Notes: generated from the letters alone by a model not told the origin. A stretch of DNA of 27,584 nucleotides from an uncultured Chitinophagales bacterium (GCA_964451125.1 CAYVGM010000006.1:1-27584), one strand, 5' to 3'; positions 1 through 26,973 are shown, counted from the first letter of the stretch. Numbers and translations: made by a program.

Positions 1-146
1 ACAAGGGTACTTTTCCGTCGGATGAAAACATCCGACGGCACGGAAAGGTCTTCCGCTACTGTGCCGTCAGGTCTTCCGACCTGACGGATGTACCGAACCA
101 ACAAGGGTACTTTTCCGTCGGATGAAAACATCCGACGGCACGGAAA
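1..146. repeat. REP/BIME-like palindromic repeat cluster (may continue beyond window start)
   Basis: 46-bp unit acaagggtacttttccgtcggatgaaaacatccgacggcacggaaa at 1-46 and 101-146, with hairpin ccgtcggatg-aaaa-catccgacgg. Between them is an oppositely oriented variant, gtgccgtcagg-tcttccga-cctgacgg-atgtacc. Confidence 0.8.
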
Positions 147-1388: not shown

Positions 1389-1910
1389 CCGTCATTTCGT
1401 CTCGCCTGAGGCGAGTTAGAGAACTCGTTTTGTATGCGGATGTCCAAGACGCATGGGTTTTCTCCTCCTCATGCTTCGTCGTCGGAATGACGGATGTCCG
1501 AGGTGCATGGGATTCCTCTCTGTCGTTCGGAATGACGGTGTATTCCACGTCATCTCGTCTCGCATCAGGGTATTTTCTTACGAATGCAAATAATTGATTT
1601 GCAATACAATACGGATAATAGTTTGTAGGTTGCAAACCAACAAAGGCGAGGGGAGTTCTTTAAAAATATCTTTGAGGCGTTCCATACTTTTTTCCCTCAA
1701 AAAATAATTAATTCTTGACCCACCTTAACCTTCTTTCTTAACAGATGTGAATTACTCGTTTATTTATAATGCGTGTTGCCCTGACAAGTACGCAACGCTA
1801 ATTGCCACGCTGCATACTTGCGCTAGTTGGGGGCATGGGATTCCTCTCTGCCGTTCGGAATGACGGTGTTTTCCTTGTCATCTCGTCTCGCCTCAGGCGA
1901 GAGAGATATC
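1389..1910. repeat. REP/MITE-like GTCAT...GGAATGAC palindromic elements
   Basis: Unit 1389-1492 bounded by ccgtcatttcg / cggaatgacgg. 65-bp direct repeat at 1505-1569 and 1833-1897 (5 mismatches). Internal palindrome ctcgcct-N-aggcgag near 1401-1415 and 1887-1901. Confidence 0.8.
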
Positions 1911-1929: not shown

Positions 1930-3684
1930 TCAATATTTTTCACAAACCACTTTTGCATATCTGAAATTACCCTGATATTCAAAGTTAAGTTGAAAGTTAT
2001 TACCTGCCGGATGACCTGCTGGAATGGTATATTCCATCTTATCCATAAAAAGATAGTCCTCATTGGCTTGAAGATTTGGTAGAGTATTTACATTCTCTCT
2101 TATAAATCCGTAGCCGTTTGTATATAATTTATAAGCATGACCAAAGCCACTATTTTGTTTCCATGCATTATCTACCCAGATAAACACGGTAATTACAATT
2201 TTTTGACCCGGATACACAGCGGTAAGATTGCCTGATCTAAGACTTGGTCCATAAGAACCTATCCAAGTGCTTGTATTATTTGTTTCATTATATCCGTCAT
2301 AAAATACGATTTCTTCGACATCCGGCACCCCCTGGCATTTCCATCTCCATCCGTCATAAACTTCTATACATTTTTTAGTAGAGTTGTAGCGTATTGAACC
2401 TTCTACATTTGCCCCTCCACTAGTACCCAATTTTACATAGCCGTTAACATCTAATGTGTTGGTAGGGTCGGCAATATTAATACCCACATTACCTCCGGCT
2501 TCCAATACCAGCCTATTATCGGCTATAGTACTTTCCGTGAATCCCAAGTCATTGTTACCGGATCCTTGCGTGCGTAAATGCCATTGATTGGTACCGGCAT
2601 TATCCTTAAACTGGATTAGGTCTGCATTACCTGCAAGAGGCTGTATGGTTAGCTTCATATTGGGTGTAGTGGTACCGATGCCCACATTGCCGGTTTCATC
2701 AATTCTCATTCTTTCTACTTGAGAATTTCCGCCACCTGTGGTGAAAAACAATCTGCCTGCCCCCGAACTTGCTATATTTATGCCTATTCTTCCTCTGTCA
2801 TTTCCGTCTTGAGTAGTAGATGTAGTAGATGACGCACCGTGTACAAAACCCATCCACCATGTGTCATTTGCATTGCCGGATGTAGTTCCTAATTTGAATA
2901 CGCCATTATTTGGAGCATTGTCTGCTACAGCTAACCTTGCGCCTGGTGAGATAGTCCCGATACCCACGTTGCCATTTTGCAGCAAGCGCATTACATCTGT
3001 ATAAGTTTGACCTCCATAAGTGCCTGATGCGCTATTTCCAACTTGAAAAGCCAATCCATTTTCAGCACCTCCGGCTTTCAAATACGCCACTGAGCCGTCG
3101 TGGGTTAAATACATGTGATCCCACTGGGCAGAGGATACGCCACCTTTTAAACCAATACTACCACTAACAACGTCTAACTTTATATCGGGAGTAGCAGAAG
3201 CACCCGAAAAATCACCGAGACCTACATTACCCGTTACATACTGCGCATCTGATTTAGTGGCAGGTGTAGAGGCTGTAGTTGCTTTGGTCCAGTCGTTTCC
3301 AGCAGCCTAATTTATGGTTCTCCATCCTGCATTTACATACTGAAATATACCTACTCCAGTGGTAGGTGCAATTGATGTGCTATTAAAAATGGCAACATTA
3401 TCATCTAAATTAATGATGGTCAATACCTGCCCTTCCACCGGAGAAGTTGCTGAAACAGCATTGGCTTGTACGCCTGCAACATTGGTAATGTATACCGTAG
3501 AAGTATTCGTTGGTACCGTTATGGTTGCTGCCGCTGCTAAGGAGGTAGGAATAACAGCCAAGCCTCCATTTACGGTTAGTTTGGCAGTAGGTGAGGTAGT
3601 GCCAATACCTACATTGCCGGTTTGAGCTACTACATTCCAGATTGTTAACTGGAAAACGCAGAAAAAAAGAGTAAAAATTTTCAT
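1930..3684 (-). pseudogene. Secreted NVGIGT-repeat fibre/adhesin-like protein, copy A, interrupted by one in-frame TAG (3307-3309)
   Basis: ORFs 3307..3684 and 1930..3114 are in the same frame. The 64 codons between them are open (AAGNDWTKATTASTPATKSDAQYVTGNVGLGDFSGAS...) and match copy B. The TAG aligns with TCG (Ser) in copy B. Signal peptide ends in A-Q. Confidence 0.85.
3312..3624 (-). repeat. 313-bp perfect inverted repeat, arm 1 (partner 22500-22812)
   Basis: Base-by-base comparison: the reverse complement of 3312-3624 equals 22500-22812. After 2 mismatches in 4 bp, a further 30 bp are identical (3278-3307 vs 22817-22846). Confidence 0.95.
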
Positions 3685-3839: not shown

Positions 3840-4413
3840 TCATATTATGAATCGGATTCTAACAATTACTACATTCCTTTTGATGTTAATAGGTAGTAAT
3901 ATACAAGCGCACACAGGAAGTTTTTTAGAATCTGCATAATAAATACCGGTATGTTTGCCATATCTGCAACAATTTAAATACAAGTATAACAAACTGAAAT
4001 AACGAGATTGAAGGCTAACGAAACGCTCGTAACTGACCGCTTTGGGGAAATAATCTTTAAGATGAATCAAGATGATTTGCCTCTAATAATATTCAAAACA
4101 TTTAAATCCGGACAAGTGATAGAAGATACAAATTGTCTTTATCTCGCTGGCAGCCATTTGCGGAATGTGTGTAGGTATTGAATTTGATTTATGGGGTAAC
4201 TTATGGGGTGCTTGCAACTGTTCAAAAGCATTCATAAAATCATCACAAGAACAAAATATTTCTATTAACTTTGATACGTGTACGATATAATTCATGGTGG
4301 TAAATGGTTTGATTCACCACAAAATTTATCTTCTTTTACAGTTTTATATCGTACACTTATAATATCCTGTTGATAATCTTTATCTTACATGGTTTCTAAT
4401 CCATAATTCACGT
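3840..4413 (-). mobile_element. IS982-family insertion sequence remnant (5' part; transposase with in-frame TAG and truncated)
   Basis: Motifs LIEIFCSCDDF, SEIKTICIFYHLSGFKCF, LKDYFPKAVSYERFV and TGIYYADSKKLPVC resemble IS982 transposase N-halves. In-frame TAG at 4083-4085; resemblance stops near 3909. The left end at 4413 (acgtgaatt on -) is tentative. Confidence 0.8.
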
Positions 4414-4586
4414 TAATTTACCTATGGGATTAATTTGAAGACTTTTTTAACGTCATTTGTTACGACAATATCTAATTTTCTGGTATATATTATACAAACA
4501 CCAAAACCAACCTACGAGGTCAATTTATATTTAGAATTTCAAAAGGTGTTGATTATCAATGTGTTTGATTTTTAACCTACGAGGTG

Positions 4587-20634: not shown

Positions 20635-22419
20635 ATGAATAAATTTTACACCGCTTTAGTATTTCTTATCATTTCCCATCAAATCTTTGCCCAACTTTTC
20701 ATTGACAACGGCACTAATGGCACCTTATCCATTAGAAATGCTTCTTCAGGTACTTTAGCTTCTTACGATAATACGAACTCAACAGTAGCCCTGTTTGTAG
20801 ATGGAGATATTACCGTGAAGGGTACGTATGACAATCAAGCTACTGAAACACAACTTACCGGCAATATCAGTAATTCAGGAACATTTACAACTACGGGTGA
20901 TGAAGTATTTGTTTCTGCCCCAAATGCAACCATCACTACAAGCATCAATCAACGTATAACCGGTTCATTTACTTCAACCAACGATTTTTACAATCTGATT
21001 ACACATAAAGCAGCTACTCAAATCGTCGATTTAGCCAATAATGTAGAAGTAGAAAATACCATAAAATTTAATAACTCAGGAAGAATTAGAACAGATGTTG
21101 CCGGACATACAAATGATGGTAGTGCCTATCCTTACGAGATCTATCTGAAAAATGGCGCAACAAGTTCATTAGTGGGTAACAGCACCGGCAATGGTGCTAC
21201 CGAAAAATATTTCGAAGGAAAACTAAGAAGAAAGGTTACATCTACGGGTACCTATTATTACCCGATTGGCGTTGCACCTGCTTCATTAGACGGTATGGAA
21301 GCCTTTGAACTTAATTTTACTTCAAATCCTAATATGGATTTTCTGGGATATATTAAACCTGCTGCAGTTGCACCTATTACAAGAAATGTGCTTTGTGATG
21401 TGGGCAAAGATCCCGGACCCGGTATGCAAACCCATAATGGCTGTGTAGGCTCTCCAGATGGCATTTATGATTGGTATTATTTAGAAACATCTATGGATTT
21501 ATCGCACGAGTGGGTGGCCACTCCAAGTGGCGGTACCAGCGGTTATGCTTACGGTATAACGCTACATCCGGGTAGTGTTTTAGACCCAAATAATGCATCA
21601 AGCTACTATACAATACCTACTGCTTGTGGAAGTCCATACCAAAATCAACGACTGAGAATAGTTGTCAAGGATGGCGTAGTAGGCGGTAATGCACAATTTT
21701 TTCCTACAATAGGTGGCTATATGGCTCCTTGGAATCATTTGGGACCTGTGTATTTGTGGTGCTCTTTTGACAATACCGATTTAGACATCACGTTAAATAA
21801 TCAGACTTCTTTCTCAACTTACCGTATCCACGGCACCAGTCTTTCTTCCAACACGGCTTTGCCGGTAGAGCTTGTATATTTAAAAGCAGAGCCTATAAAC
21901 AACTCCTATATTAAAGTTTCCTGGCAAACAGCCTCTGAAATAAATAATAAAGGATTTGAAGTGATACGCAGTACAGACGGTACTAACTTTACTTCAATTG
22001 GTTTCGTAAATGGTAACGGCACTTCAAGTTTACCGCATGATTATTCTTTTAATGATTACAACGTACAACCCGATATGCTGTATTATTATAAACTAAAACA
22101 ACTCGATTTTGACGGATCTTCTTCATTAACCTATACGGTAAGTGCTAAATTAACCGGAACAGATGTATTTTCCGTTTCAGATGTGTATCCAAATCCTGCC
22201 GATGGGGATGCCTTTGTCAATATTGTTGCTCCAGATTCCGGTGAATTACTGTTTAGTTTATACAATGTAATTGGTCAACAAGAAAATGCAGTAAAAATAA
22301 ATTTAGAAAAAGGACTCAATAAAGTTCGAATTACGGATATTAGCTTAGCAAAAGGAACGTATATTGCCCGTTTTGAATTTAATAACACTACAACCAGTAA
22401 AAAAATAATTAAAAAATAG
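20635..22419 (+). CDS. T9SS type-A sorting domain-containing secreted protein
   Basis: Signal peptide ending A-Q; LPVELVYLKA...WQTASEINNKGFEVIRS Ig-like module; CTD VYPNP...YNVIGQ...LAKGTYI...KKIIKK. N-terminal passenger not recognised. Confidence 0.88.
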   Translation: MNKFYTALVFLIISHQIFAQLFIDNGTNGTLSIRNASSGTLASYDNTNSTVALFVDGDITVKGTYDNQATETQLTGNISNSGTFTTTGDEVFVSAPNATITTSINQRITGSFTSTNDFYNLITHKAATQIVDLANNVEVENTIKFNNSGRIRTDVAGHTNDGSAYPYEIYLKNGATSSLVGNSTGNGATEKYFEGKLRRKVTSTGTYYYPIGVAPASLDGMEAFELNFTSNPNMDFLGYIKPAAVAPITRNVLCDVGKDPGPGMQTHNGCVGSPDGIYDWYYLETSMDLSHEWVATPSGGTSGYAYGITLHPGSVLDPNNASSYYTIPTACGSPYQNQRLRIVVKDGVVGGNAQFFPTIGGYMAPWNHLGPVYLWCSFDNTDLDITLNNQTSFSTYRIHGTSLSSNTALPVELVYLKAEPINNSYIKVSWQTASEINNKGFEVIRSTDGTNFTSIGFVNGNGTSSLPHDYSFNDYNVQPDMLYYYKLKQLDFDGSSSLTYTVSAKLTGTDVFSVSDVYPNPADGDAFVNIVAPDSGELLFSLYNVIGQQENAVKINLEKGLNKVRITDISLAKGTYIARFEFNNTTTSKKIIKK

Positions 22420-22442
22420 TTTAACTCATAAAAGTTGTCATC

Positions 22443-24218
22443 ATGAAAAATTCTTTACTTTTTATTTTATCTGTGATACTGACTGTAAACAGTTATGCCC
22501 AAACCGGCAATGTAGGTATTGGCACTACCTCACCTACTGCCAAACTAACCGTAAATGGAGGCTTGGCTGTTATTCCTACCTCCTTAGCAGCGGCAGCAAC
22601 CATAACGGTACCAACGAATACTTCTACGGTATACATTACCAATGTTGCAGGCGTACAAGCCAATGCTGTTTCAGCAACTTCTCCGGTGGAAGGGCAGGTA
22701 TTGACCATCATTAATTTAGATGATAATGTTGCCATTTTTAATAGCACATCAATTGCACCTACCACTGGAGTAGGTATATTTCAGTATGTAAATGCAGGAT
22801 GGAGAACCATAAGTTCGGCTGCTGGAAACGACTGGACCAAAGCAACGACAGCATCTACACCTGCTGTTAAATCGGATGCACAGTATGTAACCGGTAACAT
22901 AGGTATTGGTGATTTTTCTGGAGCTTCTTCAACTCCGGCTCAAGAATTGACAATTGGTACATCTACTTCCAATTCTGATCAGCGCATCTTGATTGATGCT
23001 GCTGCAAATGTTCAGTCAGGAATCGGTTTGAATAGTGCTGGTGTAGAAAAGTGGGTGATATATCGTCCGAGTTCATCAAATGACTTACGTTTTTACAATT
23101 CTACAACTACAGCCACTGATAAAATTACCTTTCAGGACGGAACAGGTAATGTCGGTATTGGTCTTACATCTCCATCCACTAGATTGCATGTGCAAACCGG
23201 AGCTAACTCTACTGCGGCAACGTTCGATGGCTCCAATTCGGCAGACAATACGGCAGTAGTAAGTATCAGAAGACAGGATATACCTGCAAGAAAAATAGAC
23301 TTTATTCCATCAGCTTATGATGGCTCTGCCAATACATGGCAGGAGATACAATTTAGCAGTTCAAGTATTGCAGGAACACATACTACACGCTTTACCAACG
23401 GCTTAAAATATACATTTGATAATATTGTGGGTATAGGAACGAATACGCCTAATTTCCGCCTTACTATTCAACCAGCTGCCGGTAATTCAGATCTTATCCA
23501 ATTTAGAAATAATGCGGGTGTAAATAAATGGCATATGCGTACGCAAGGTACATCAGATGGAGATTTGGGCTTTACTGAATCTGGAATAGCAGATAATAGA
23601 TTGGTATTAGAACAAGGTGGCAACATCGGTATTGGCACATCTAACCCGGAAGTAAAATTGCAGGTAGAAGGATCTACCAAAGTAACAGAGACTTCATTTA
23701 CTAGAGCATTGGTAGTAACAGATTATTCACAACTTTCCGGTAATAATGGTAATAGTAGTTGGACAGATGTTAATTGCAATGATGGTTGGGCAGTTACAGC
23801 ACTACAAGTATATGTTGGTGGATATCTGCAAGGTCCAATCCAAACTATTTGTGCTAATTTAACAGGTGTAATAAGTGGTGGTACATATAGATCAGGAAAC
23901 TCAACTAATGGATATGACAATGCTGACCATATATTTGATTGCAACTCAAATGAAATTGCCCGTGGTTTTGGATTATATAAAAGCAGTACCGGAGAATTTG
24001 ATAATGGTAATGTGTTTTGTAGTACTGTTTCATCAGGCTATACTAGAGGAACAGCATTTCAGGCATTGGGTAACAGTGGTAATGGCACCGGCCCTGATAA
24101 TATGAACCATGCTACCTCTTGTCCTCCCGGGTCATATTTAGTAGGCTCCACTATTTACGCTACTGGCAGACTAGATGGGAATTTACGCATCCGTTGTGCT
24201 ACTATCACTAAAAATTAG
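22443..24218 (+). CDS. Secreted NVGIGT-repeat fibre/adhesin-like protein, copy B (intact, 591 aa), with Cys-rich C-terminal tip
   Basis: Signal peptide (SYA-Q), repeated GN(V/I)GIG junctions, three C...C repeats at the C-terminus. Starts 23 bp after the T9SS gene. Confidence 0.85.
   Translation: MKNSLLFILSVILTVNSYAQTGNVGIGTTSPTAKLTVNGGLAVIPTSLAAAATITVPTNTSTVYITNVAGVQANAVSATSPVEGQVLTIINLDDNVAIFNSTSIAPTTGVGIFQYVNAGWRTISSAAGNDWTKATTASTPAVKSDAQYVTGNIGIGDFSGASSTPAQELTIGTSTSNSDQRILIDAAANVQSGIGLNSAGVEKWVIYRPSSSNDLRFYNSTTTATDKITFQDGTGNVGIGLTSPSTRLHVQTGANSTAATFDGSNSADNTAVVSIRRQDIPARKIDFIPSAYDGSANTWQEIQFSSSSIAGTHTTRFTNGLKYTFDNIVGIGTNTPNFRLTIQPAAGNSDLIQFRNNAGVNKWHMRTQGTSDGDLGFTESGIADNRLVLEQGGNIGIGTSNPEVKLQVEGSTKVTETSFTRALVVTDYSQLSGNNGNSSWTDVNCNDGWAVTALQVYVGGYLQGPIQTICANLTGVISGGTYRSGNSTNGYDNADHIFDCNSNEIARGFGLYKSSTGEFDNGNVFCSTVSSGYTRGTAFQALGNSGNGTGPDNMNHATSCPPGSYLVGSTIYATGRLDGNLRIRCATITKN
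22500..22812 (+). repeat. 313-bp perfect inverted repeat, arm 2 (partner 3312-3624)
   Basis: Identical to the reverse complement of 3312-3624. Its first 74 bp are also identical to 26848-26921. Confidence 0.95.
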
Positions 24219-26787: not shown

Positions 26788-26973
26788 ATGAAAAAAAACC
26801 TACTCTTCTTTTTTAGCCTCATCCTTATAGGCTTATATGCCATAGCTCAAACCGGCAATGTAGGTATTGGCACTACCTCACCTACTGCCAAACTAACCGT
26901 AAATGGAGGCTTGGCTGTTATACCTACGTCTTTAGTAGCGACAGCCGCTATTACAGTGCCAGCAAATACTTAA
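26788..26973 (+). pseudogene. Fibre copy C, truncated N-terminal fragment (61 aa)
   Basis: Own signal peptide, then QTGNVGIGTTSPTAKLTVNGGLAVIPTSL. 26848-26921 is identical to copies A and B, then silent-site divergence, TAA in place of TCT, and no homology after the stop. Confidence 0.8.

What the first reader, a model, noticed from the sequence alone, without database searches (positions are those of the whole stretch)
3312..3624. Sharp-edged zero-divergence tract starting at the mature N-terminus, against saturated divergence elsewhere in the same genes
Seen: identity begins at the Gln codon right after three different signal peptides and has no silent changes over 313 bp. The other module shared by A (~2480-2690) and B (~23425-23640) is 52/69 aa identical with most third positions changed, and codons just past the 30-bp tract are also silently diverged. 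Inference: purifying selection cannot preserve silent sites like this, so the tract was recently homogenised by gene conversion or recombination, or collapsed by the assembler.
Basis: partly seen in the sequence, partly recalled or inferred. Interest (0 to 1): 0.65.

Follow-up and report, generated by a model that had tools for sequence, protein, structure and literature searches.

The report
Recombination-homogenised start of two fibre genes
Two oppositely oriented genes for secreted, phage-tail-fibre-like surface proteins of a sludge bacterium share a 313-base identical stretch, most likely copied recently from one gene onto the other; this is an ordinary process, and the exact "zero differences" may be partly a product of metagenome assembly.

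Summary
Gene A (1930-3684, minus strand, one in-frame TAG) and gene B (22443-24218, intact) are identical over 3312-3624 = 22500-22812. No identical-amino-acid codon of about 100 there differs, against 26%, 47% and 53-58% further along.

Three unrelated signal peptides (A, B and a truncated copy C) all meet this module at the same Gln codon.

The best reading is nested copy-over (gene conversion) between paralogous MAT-like fibre genes, stopped on the 5' side where homology ends.

"Exactly zero" is not secure:
- The genome is a fragmented, scaffolded metagenome bin in which every long internal repeat has a perfect core.
- In independent k=31 contigs from four sludge runs, two runs carry a second tract haplotype. 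One of these strains differs from the window at 1 base in 2275, and there the second haplotype's depth matches gene A's.
- In one run the tract sits at single-copy depth although A's 3' part is present.

The A-specific junction with the TAG is held by at least 20 runs from 12 studies, so it is real.

The window holds no recombinase, and no other sign of a programmed switch was found. This scan found the same pattern before in fibre paralogs of other (CPR) genomes. Ordinary; low interest.

The parts
3312..3624 (-). Arm A of the identical tract. It encodes mature residues 21-124 of gene A, a small beta-sandwich domain.
   Evidence: Zero mismatches to 22500-22812. Model of B residues 20-135 has pLDDT 76 and nine strands.
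22500..22812 (+). Arm B of the identical tract, in the intact gene B.
   Evidence: Present without differences in Logan contigs of all four runs laid.
3278..3311 (-). Edge of the tract in A. Two substitutions 3 bases apart (3311, 3308) create the in-frame TAG (3307-3309), followed by 30 bases identical to B. This is probably part of the same homogenised stretch (347 bp in all).
   Evidence: Words of this 64-base junction are held by at least 20 runs from 12 studies. TAG is an ordinary stop in this genome: it ends 220 of 1092 long frames.
3188..3277 (-). Older, partly diverged continuation (stalk): 17 mismatches in 90 bases against B 22847-22936.
3625..3684 (-). Gene A's own start codon and signal peptide, unrelated at the DNA level to those of B and C.
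22443..22499 (+). Gene B's own start codon and signal peptide.
1930..3684 (-). Gene A: 585 codons with one in-frame TAG at codon 126 and an otherwise open frame. It is a MAT-like fibre gene, annotated in the public record as two genes (125 and 394 aa).
   Evidence: Residues about 293-433 match Bd2133 (PDB 8OND) at E 4.7e-10.
22443..24218 (+). Gene B: an intact 591-aa paralog, 55% identical to A over 442 aligned positions (B residues 1-414), with an unrelated C-terminal tip.
26788..26973 (+). Copy C: a 61-codon remnant with its own signal peptide. Bases 26848-26921 are identical to A and B, then it diverges and stops. It lies beside the 5S/23S rRNA genes.
2470..2685 (-). Shared middle module, used as the internal yardstick of old divergence. 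It pairs with B 23427-23642 and is 66% identical in DNA.
3840..4295 (-). Decayed IS982-family transposase remnant, 155 bases upstream of gene A's start. It is a sign of past rearrangement at the A locus.
   Evidence: NF033520, E 4.6e-6, fragment.

Best explanation
A, B and C are paralogs of a secreted, trimeric-fibre-type (MAT-like, tail-fibre-like) protein family. Each has its own promoter region and signal peptide, followed by the same N-terminal beta-sandwich module.

The module has been homogenised by homologous recombination inside the genome. Sequence was copied non-reciprocally from one copy onto another (gene conversion), more than once. This gives a nested pattern: 74 bases identical in all three copies, 313 (probably 347) bases identical in A and B, about 90 further bases at 81% identity, then saturation.

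The sharp 5' edge is simply where homology ends, because heteroduplex cannot run into the unrelated signal-peptide DNA. The 3' edges are where individual events stopped.

The TAG in A lies 3 bases beyond the perfect run and arose or survived after the last event.

Shown: the identity pattern, the reality of the A junction in many samples, and mosaic haplotypes in other samples.

Inferred: the recombination mechanism, its direction (B, the only intact copy, as likely donor), and that both arms are truly near-identical in the source genome. In the real population the arms may still differ at a few sites that the assembler's consensus removed.
For: - Step change in synonymous difference (0 of about 100, then 6/23, 7/15 and 19/36), with p = 7.5e-9 and 8.4e-14.
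- All three copies share the same 5' homology edge, with different 3' ends.
- The A-specific junction words are held by at least 20 runs from 12 studies. Tract end, TAG and A's 3' part are therefore really joined.
- In run X4 the summed depth of the two tract haplotypes (10 + 7) equals A plus B flank depth (7.09 + 9.1). The shared 33-mer of variant plus C (14.7) is close to the sum of its branches (7 + 9.51), so two tract copies exist there.
- The variant haplotype is a mosaic. Three of its four synonymous changes are copy C's letters, flanked by A/B-type sequence. Its strain differs from the window at 1 base in 2275.
- The variants are confined to the tract and none occur in B's flanks, so they come from a paralog and not from another strain.
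- The same design (conserved base after the signal peptide, varied tips) is described for MAT fibres (PMC10769870). RecA-type conversion between adhesin paralogs is known (PMC3960876).
Against: - No reads of the source sample were seen.
- The bin looks like SPAdes-type scaffolds (runs of exactly 100 or 10 N). Such an assembler writes one graph edge into both arms.
- All other long internal repeats of this bin also have perfect cores (610, 322 and 367 bases), and no repeat pair with sparse isolated differences was kept.
- In run X1 the tract is at 8.9x while A's and B's 3' parts are at 7.1x and 8.5x. In run X13 the tract is at 1x and A is not seen.
- Fibre paralogs in five better-assembled genomes of the same genus show identical runs of 74 bases at most.
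- k=31 contigs cannot link a haplotype to an arm.
Confidence: 0.62

Rival explanations
1. Assembly artefact in the strong sense. In the real genome, arm A does not carry this sequence, or carries a version about as diverged as the flanks. The assembler routed the contig twice through one collapsed graph edge, so the zero-divergence tract in A is borrowed from B.
For: - Fragmented bin: 424 contigs, N50 9.9 kb, 81% complete, 4% contamination.
- Every long repeat in it has a perfect core, and no sparse-difference repeat was kept.
- Run X1 has the tract at single-copy depth with A's 3' part present. The flow into the shared 30-mer (8.9) is about half the flow out (15.6).
- Run X6 shows a 13-difference patch (17% over 77 bases) that could be the unconverted state.
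Against: - The A-specific letters at 3308 and 3311 cannot come from B. Thirty of the 34 possible words of that junction reach into the tract's end, and both sampled words are held by at least 20 runs.
- A's signal peptide is in frame with the tract's start.
- Run X4 supports two tract copies that differ at only 4 of 313 bases.
- Runs that hold the A junction have correspondingly lower shares of B's words. This is as expected if the A and B paths form a simple bubble anchored in the tract.
Confidence: 0.15
2. A programmed DNA switch. The inverted 313-base arms are recombination sites whose crossover flips the 18.9-kb segment between them, or a cassette system. The switch swaps promoters and signal peptides between fibre bodies, or turns the TAG-bearing gene on and off.
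For: - The arms are inverted and start exactly at the constant/variable boundary of fibre genes, as in phage Mu G or P1 C segments (my own knowledge).
- There is one intact and two defective copies.
- Depths of B's 5' and 3' flanks differ in run X6 (6.1 against 9.9).
Against: - No recombinase, invertase or reverse transcriptase lies in the window. The segment between the arms holds housekeeping genes.
- Every copy has its own start and signal peptide.
- The TAG lies outside the arms on the 3' side, so a flip cannot repair it.
- No joints were reported, although k=31 contigs could not show them.
Confidence: 0.05
3. Constraint at the nucleotide level. An RNA element, a binding site or the antisense reading frame inside the tract keeps every base fixed in both copies.
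For: - Antisense frames of 88 and 90 codons lie inside both arms.
- The first 74 bases are identical in all three copies.
Against: - No Rfam family matches in the window apart from rRNA.
- The antisense frame matches no family.
- Synonymous variants of the tract exist in natural populations.
- The exact 40- and 41-base words of the tract occur in no other species' genome or held metagenome contig.
- Selection of this kind does not give 313 of 313 identical bases beside 19% divergence.
Confidence: 0.03
4. A recent insertion or duplication of the module. For example, a rearrangement linked to the neighbouring IS982 element placed a fresh copy of B's 5' module in front of an older gene body. No repeated conversion is needed.
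For: - An IS982 remnant lies 155 bases upstream of A.
- A single event would also give a perfect tract.
Against: - The graded pattern (74, 313/347 and 440 bases) and the different mosaic haplotypes in other samples need several events.
- A's signal peptide is not B's, so the 5' join would have to fall exactly at the cleavage site.
Confidence: 0.1

Closest known systems
Interlocus gene conversion between adhesin paralogs, e.g. Helicobacter pylori babA/babB and sabA/sabB (review PMC3960876)
   Same: Surface-protein paralogs at separate loci in one genome. Stretches are made identical by intragenomic, RecA-type recombination, giving chimeric genes. Defective or silent copies sit beside an expressed one.
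   Different: Here the process is only inferred from one assembled bin plus k-mer contigs, not observed experimentally. The converted part is the N-terminal module alone. The host is an uncultured sludge bacterium, probably of the Bacteroidota.
MAT (mosaic adhesive trimer) fibres of Bdellovibrio bacteriovorus (Caulton et al. 2024, PMC10769870; PDB 8OND, 8OML)
   Same: Signal peptide followed directly by a conserved beta-rich domain, then a beta-helical fibre with repeated loop motifs, then diverse tips with or without an S74 chaperone. Gene A matches Bd2133 at E 4.7e-10 and Bd1334 at E 1.9e-4. Relatives of A and B carry Peptidase_S74.
   Different: Homology of the N-terminal domain to the MAT N-domain was not tested. 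Gene B has no match to any solved structure. The recurring motif here (NVGIGTxxPxxKL) resembles the published capping-loop consensus but does not fit it exactly. The host is not a known predator.
Invertible tail-fibre segments of phages Mu (Gin/G) and P1 (Cin/C), and shufflons (my own knowledge)
   Same: Inverted repeats at the junction between a constant N-terminal part and alternative C-terminal parts of fibre genes.
   Different: Those use short (about 20-35 base) sites, an adjacent serine or tyrosine recombinase, and one shared promoter plus constant part. Here the arms are 313 bases long, no recombinase is present, and every copy has its own 5' end.
Earlier findings of this scan in CPR/Patescibacteria fibre paralogs (e1-3373535, e1-861747, e1-817448, e1-4899527)
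   Same: Near-identical 5' modules (113-772 bases) shared by tail-fibre-like secreted paralogs. One case is also inverted and starts at the mature N-terminus. All were read as gene conversion.
   Different: Different phylum. Those notes are unchecked by me.

Membership tests
Interlocus gene conversion (concerted evolution of paralogs) | Identical run far longer than flanking divergence predicts, silent sites included | tested here: met
   313 of 313 bases identical. Synonymous differences are 0 of about 100 in the tract, against 13/38 and 19/36 beyond it, with p = 7.5e-9 and 8.4e-14.
Interlocus gene conversion (concerted evolution of paralogs) | Both copies physically carry the tract in one genome (not a consensus artefact) | tested here: inconclusive
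   Run X4 shows two haplotypes whose depths sum to A plus B. Run X6 is similar. Runs X1 and X13 are at single-copy depth. The A junction is real in at least 20 runs. No reads of the source sample were seen.
Interlocus gene conversion (concerted evolution of paralogs) | Mosaic or incongruent relationships between tract and flanks among copies or strains | tested here: inconclusive
   A 4-site variant shares 3 letters with copy C inside otherwise A/B-type sequence. A 13-site patch occurs in run X6. These haplotypes cannot be assigned to an arm with k=31 contigs.
Interlocus gene conversion (concerted evolution of paralogs) | Dependence on homologous recombination (RecA) | not testable with these tools
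   Needs genetics in a cultured strain.
MAT fibre superfamily (PMC10769870) | Sequence relationship of the fibre body to solved MAT proteins | tested here: met
   Gene A residues about 293-433 match 8OND (Bd2133) at E 4.7e-10 and 8OML (Bd1334) at E 1.9e-4. B shares that module with A (52 of 72 residues) but has no direct PDB match.
MAT fibre superfamily (PMC10769870) | Conserved beta-rich domain of about 130 aa directly after the signal peptide | tested here: inconclusive
   A beta-sandwich of about 105 aa is predicted right after the signal peptide (pLDDT 76). It gives only weak fold matches to tail-fibre and adhesin sandwiches. Homology to the MAT N-domain was not tested.
MAT fibre superfamily (PMC10769870) | C-terminal S74 chaperone (S74 group) or another tip (NS74 group) | tested here: met
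   No Peptidase_S74 in A or B, so they are NS74-type with unrelated tips. Relatives P0002, P0005 and P0124 carry S74.
MAT fibre superfamily (PMC10769870) | Trimeric fibre displayed on the cell surface | not testable with these tools
   Needs expression and microscopy.
Site-specific invertible fibre switch (Gin/Cin type, shufflon) | Recombinase gene next to the repeats | tested here: not met
   No recombinase family among the 21 window products scanned, 20 in Pfam and some also in NCBIfam.
Site-specific invertible fibre switch (Gin/Cin type, shufflon) | One promoter and constant 5' part outside the invertible segment, serving alternative 3' parts | tested here: not met
   A, B and C each have their own start codon and signal peptide.
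Site-specific invertible fibre switch (Gin/Cin type, shufflon) | Both orientations present in a population | not testable with these tools
   Only k=31 contigs were available, and they cannot bridge 313 bases.
Diversity-generating retroelement | Template and variable repeats differing at adenines, with a reverse transcriptase nearby | tested here: not met
   Zero differences in the tract. The mismatches beyond it are of all kinds. No reverse transcriptase in the window.

The most novel reading that the evidence does not exclude
The three copies form a polarised, recurrent conversion system. Events start at or stop at the fixed signal-peptide boundary and run variable distances into the gene. 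Natural populations are polymorphic for how far gene A has been overwritten: no tract (runs X1, X13), a patchy tract (X6), nearly complete (X4), complete (this bin). An event reaching just 5 bases further would erase the TAG and switch on a fibre with a different tip. Gene A would then be a reversibly silenced spare adhesin, not a dead gene.
Probability: 0.1. Interest if true: 0.55.

Novelty: new member of a known kind. Interest (0 to 1): 0.25.

Why it matters
If real, it is one more example of surface-fibre gene families keeping a common "base" identical while their tips diverge, here in a widespread sludge bacterium and in the MAT-like family, whose biology outside Bdellovibrio is hardly known. 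It also has a practical side. Perfect repeat cores in short-read metagenome bins should not be read as zero divergence without reads. In other samples of nearly the same strain, the tract carries two distinct haplotypes that probably belong to the two arms.

Tried and rejected
- **Other codes for TAG.** Rejected: TAG ends 220 of 1092 long frames in this genome.
- **Further tract copies in the genome.** None. There are only distant paralogs on C272 and C39.
- **Independent assemblies.**
  - Exact-protein look-ups found nothing for A's 125-aa, 394-aa and 30-aa products, for B, or for three neighbouring genes.
  - Only one Logan contig starting at the shared 30-mer was returned.
  - The cluster look-up showed only the bin's own annotation.
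- **Close orthologs of A or B.** None. The best hits are 55% identical over 30% of B and 42% over 45% of A, so no tract-versus-flank tree across strains was possible.
- **Parallel cases in the genus.** Paralogs in five genomes of the genus have identical runs of 74 bases at most.
- **Promoter and terminator scan around A.** No more sites than in shuffles.
- **Pfam and NCBIfam on A and B.** No family.
- **Fold search of the tract's domain.** Only weak beta-sandwich matches.
- **DGR, invertase switch and RNA element.** Considered and rejected (see the membership tests and rival explanations).

Full report
**1. What is there**

The window is a whole contig (C6) of a fragmented bin: 424 contigs, 2.93 Mb, N50 9.9 kb, 36% G+C, 81% complete and 4% contaminated. 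Its DNA is found in activated-sludge and wastewater metagenomes from many studies.

- Gene A (1930-3684, minus strand) is a 585-codon frame with a single in-frame TAG at codon 126 (3307-3309).
- Gene B (22443-24218, plus strand) is an intact 591-aa paralog.
- Copy C (26788-26973) is a 61-codon remnant next to the 5S and 23S rRNA genes, where the contig ends.
- The repeat finder reports inverted arms 3188-3627 / 22497-22936 (440 bases, 96%). C matches the first 129 bases at 90%.

**2.

Base by base, A and B are identical from 3624 down to 3312 (22500-22812). There is one silent mismatch at 3625, and upstream of it the signal-peptide DNA is unrelated. Two mismatches (3311, 3308) make AAT TAG in A where B has AGT TCG. 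Then come 30 identical bases, then 17 mismatches in 90 bases, then no nucleotide homology.

By codons, none of about 100 identical-residue codons in the tract differs. The next blocks show 6/23 and 7/15, and the shared middle module 19/36. The statistics are Fisher p = 7.5e-9 against the next 50 codons and 8.4e-14 against the middle module, and a run-length chance of about 1e-9.

C is identical to both for 74 bases from the same Gln codon. It then differs at 13 of 43 bases (7 silent codon changes) and stops.

Within the genome the tract exists only in these three places.

**3. What the genes are**

Pfam and NCBIfam name nothing in A or B. Their database relatives are long Bacteroidota and other "tail fiber domain-containing" proteins, many ending in Peptidase_S74.

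A's fibre body matches the solved Bdellovibrio MAT fibres Bd2133 (8OND, E 4.7e-10) and Bd1334 (8OML, E 1.9e-4) (entries identified in PMC10769870). [quoted passage not shown]

The tract encodes just such a domain. The model is a nine-strand beta-sandwich (pLDDT 76) with weak fold matches to tail-fibre, tailspike and adhesin sandwiches.

In the nearest relative, P0002, the same module occurs internally and twice, so it is a movable building block.

**4. Is the zero real?**

This was the main test. Two kinds of evidence bear on it.

*(a) The assembly.* N runs of exactly 100 (99 times) and 10 (16 times) suggest SPAdes-type scaffolds (the assembler is my inference). Such assemblers write one graph edge into every place a repeat is traversed, and they pop small bubbles.

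In this bin every other long internal repeat also has a perfect core, with mismatches only at its edges: C186 about 610 bases, C282 322, C12 367. Among 344 repeat pairs, none keeps sparse isolated differences. The only two pairs with several long identical runs are 89-93% identical overall.

So the bin itself cannot show that the arms are identical.

*(b) Independent data.* Logan k=31 contigs of four runs from four studies were laid on 22250-23150.

| Run | B 5' flank | Bases 22500-22573 | Tract | Other haplotypes | C branch | B 3' | A 3' |
|---|---|---|---|---|---|---|---|
| X1 | 8.99 | 19.7 | 8.9 | none | 9.05 | 8.51 | 7.11 |
| X4 | 8.88 | merged with flank | reference 10, then 13.5 | 4-site variant, 7 | 9.51 | 9.1 | 7.09 |
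| X6 | 6.12 | 13 | reference 10.2, then 8.47 | 4-site variant 4.4; 13-site patch 3.2 | 6.56 | 9.94 | not seen |
| X13 | 5.91 | part of one contig | 5.94 (one contig, 22500-23150) | none | no fork | same contig | not seen |

- In X4 the 4-site variant is T22574A, T22577C, C22580G, C22583T. A 33-base piece shared by the variant and C has depth 14.7, close to the sum of its two branches (7 + 9.51).
- In X6 the 13-site patch lies at 22653-22729.

The four variant sites are all synonymous, and three of them are C's letters. The 13-site patch has 7 silent and 6 conservative changes.

X4's A 3' contig was also fetched by exact-protein look-up. It differs from the window at 1 base in 2275. No variant lies in B's flanks. 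The extra haplotypes are therefore paralog copies, not another strain.

My reading is that in X4 arm A most likely carries the 4-site variant, so the arms are 98.7% identical there, not 100%. In X6 a minority arm is about 5% different. X1 is unexplained: A's 3' part is present, yet the tract and its first 74 bases are each one copy short.

Contigs of this kind cannot link a haplotype to an arm, and they drop minor variants.

*(c) The A-specific junction.* All 34 words of the 64 bases 3278-3341 contain an A-only letter. The sampled words are held completely by at least 20 runs from 12 studies dated 2020-2025. Runs that hold them have lower shares of B's words (X7 0.96, X11 0.91, X12 0.82). This is expected if the A and B paths form a bubble anchored in the tract, with only one path kept per run.

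The TAG and the join of the tract's end to A's body are therefore real and widespread. TAG is a normal stop here.

**5. Mechanism**

The pattern has one common 5' limit in three copies, identical runs of 74 and 313 (347 with the two clustered changes) bases, then 81%, then saturation. Other samples add mosaic variants. This fits repeated non-reciprocal copying between paralogs by homologous recombination, halted on the 5' side where homology ends.

B, the only intact copy, is the likely donor. That direction is inferred.

Nothing suggests a dedicated machine. The 21 window products scanned against Pfam or NCBIfam include no recombinase or reverse transcriptase, and the 18.9 kb between the arms holds housekeeping genes. 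Each copy has its own 5' end, and the TAG lies outside the arms, so inversion could not repair it.

A decayed IS982 transposase fragment sits 155 bases upstream of A, showing that this locus has been rearranged before.

**6. Comparison and novelty**

The closest process is conversion between adhesin paralogs such as babA/babB (PMC3960876). The closest protein family is MAT (PMC10769870).

This scan has already reported near-identical 5' modules in fibre paralogs of several CPR genomes. One of them is inverted and begins at the mature N-terminus. I did not check those notes.

Sampled relatives in the genus do not show such long identical runs, and no close ortholog exists in the databases.

**7. 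Verdict**

This is a real step in divergence caused by recent recombination between MAT-like fibre paralogs, of a well-known kind. The figure "zero" is not established and is probably sharpened by consensus assembly. Interest is low. The one open oddity is the copy-number disagreement between samples.

Noticed in passing
window 3840-4295 (minus strand); also G000 C191:1342-1604: Decayed IS982-family transposase remnant, split into two short frames, 155 bases upstream of gene A's start. 270 bases of it (4152-4417) are 85.6% like a stretch on contig C191.
   Followed up: partly
window 3307-3309: The single TAG in gene A is made by two substitutions 3 bases apart. They are the only differences in 347 aligned bases. 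The junction is held by at least 20 public runs, so it is a stable allele and not an error. The 459 codons after it carry no other lesion.
   Followed up: partly
run X1 laid on window 22250-23150: The tract and its first 74 bases are one copy short by k-mer depth, although A's 3' part is present at full depth. What precedes A's body in that sample is unknown.
   Followed up: no
G000 contigs C7:11320-11491, C25:585-757, C26:16403-16574, C28:12541-12707 and at least 15 more: A dispersed repeat family of about 165 bases, 90-97% alike, on many contigs of the genome (MITE- or REP-like). It does not occur in this window.
   Followed up: no
window 1-46 and 101-146: A perfect 46-base direct repeat with an internal palindrome at the very start of the contig. 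Weaker copies lie on C295 and C45. It is either a small repeat element or an end-of-contig artefact.
   Followed up: partly
window 1502-1569 and 1830-1897: A 68-base direct repeat (91%) in the non-coding stretch downstream of gene A, with a 50-base relative on C32.
   Followed up: no
window 3359-3625 (+) and 22493-22765 (-): Antisense open frames of 88 and 90 codons inside both tract arms. They have no family match and are probably chance.
   Followed up: partly
window 20635-22419: The gene just upstream of B encodes a 594-aa protein with a T9SS C-terminal sorting domain. A and B have a signal peptide but no such domain, so their route to the surface is unclear.
   Followed up: no
G000 C186:441-2198, C282:372-1039, C12:21230-21919: Other internal repeats of the bin (about 640, 345 and 367 bases), each with a perfect core and mismatches only at the edges. 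The C282 and C12 pairs are overlapping tandem copies with a 323-base period.
   Followed up: partly
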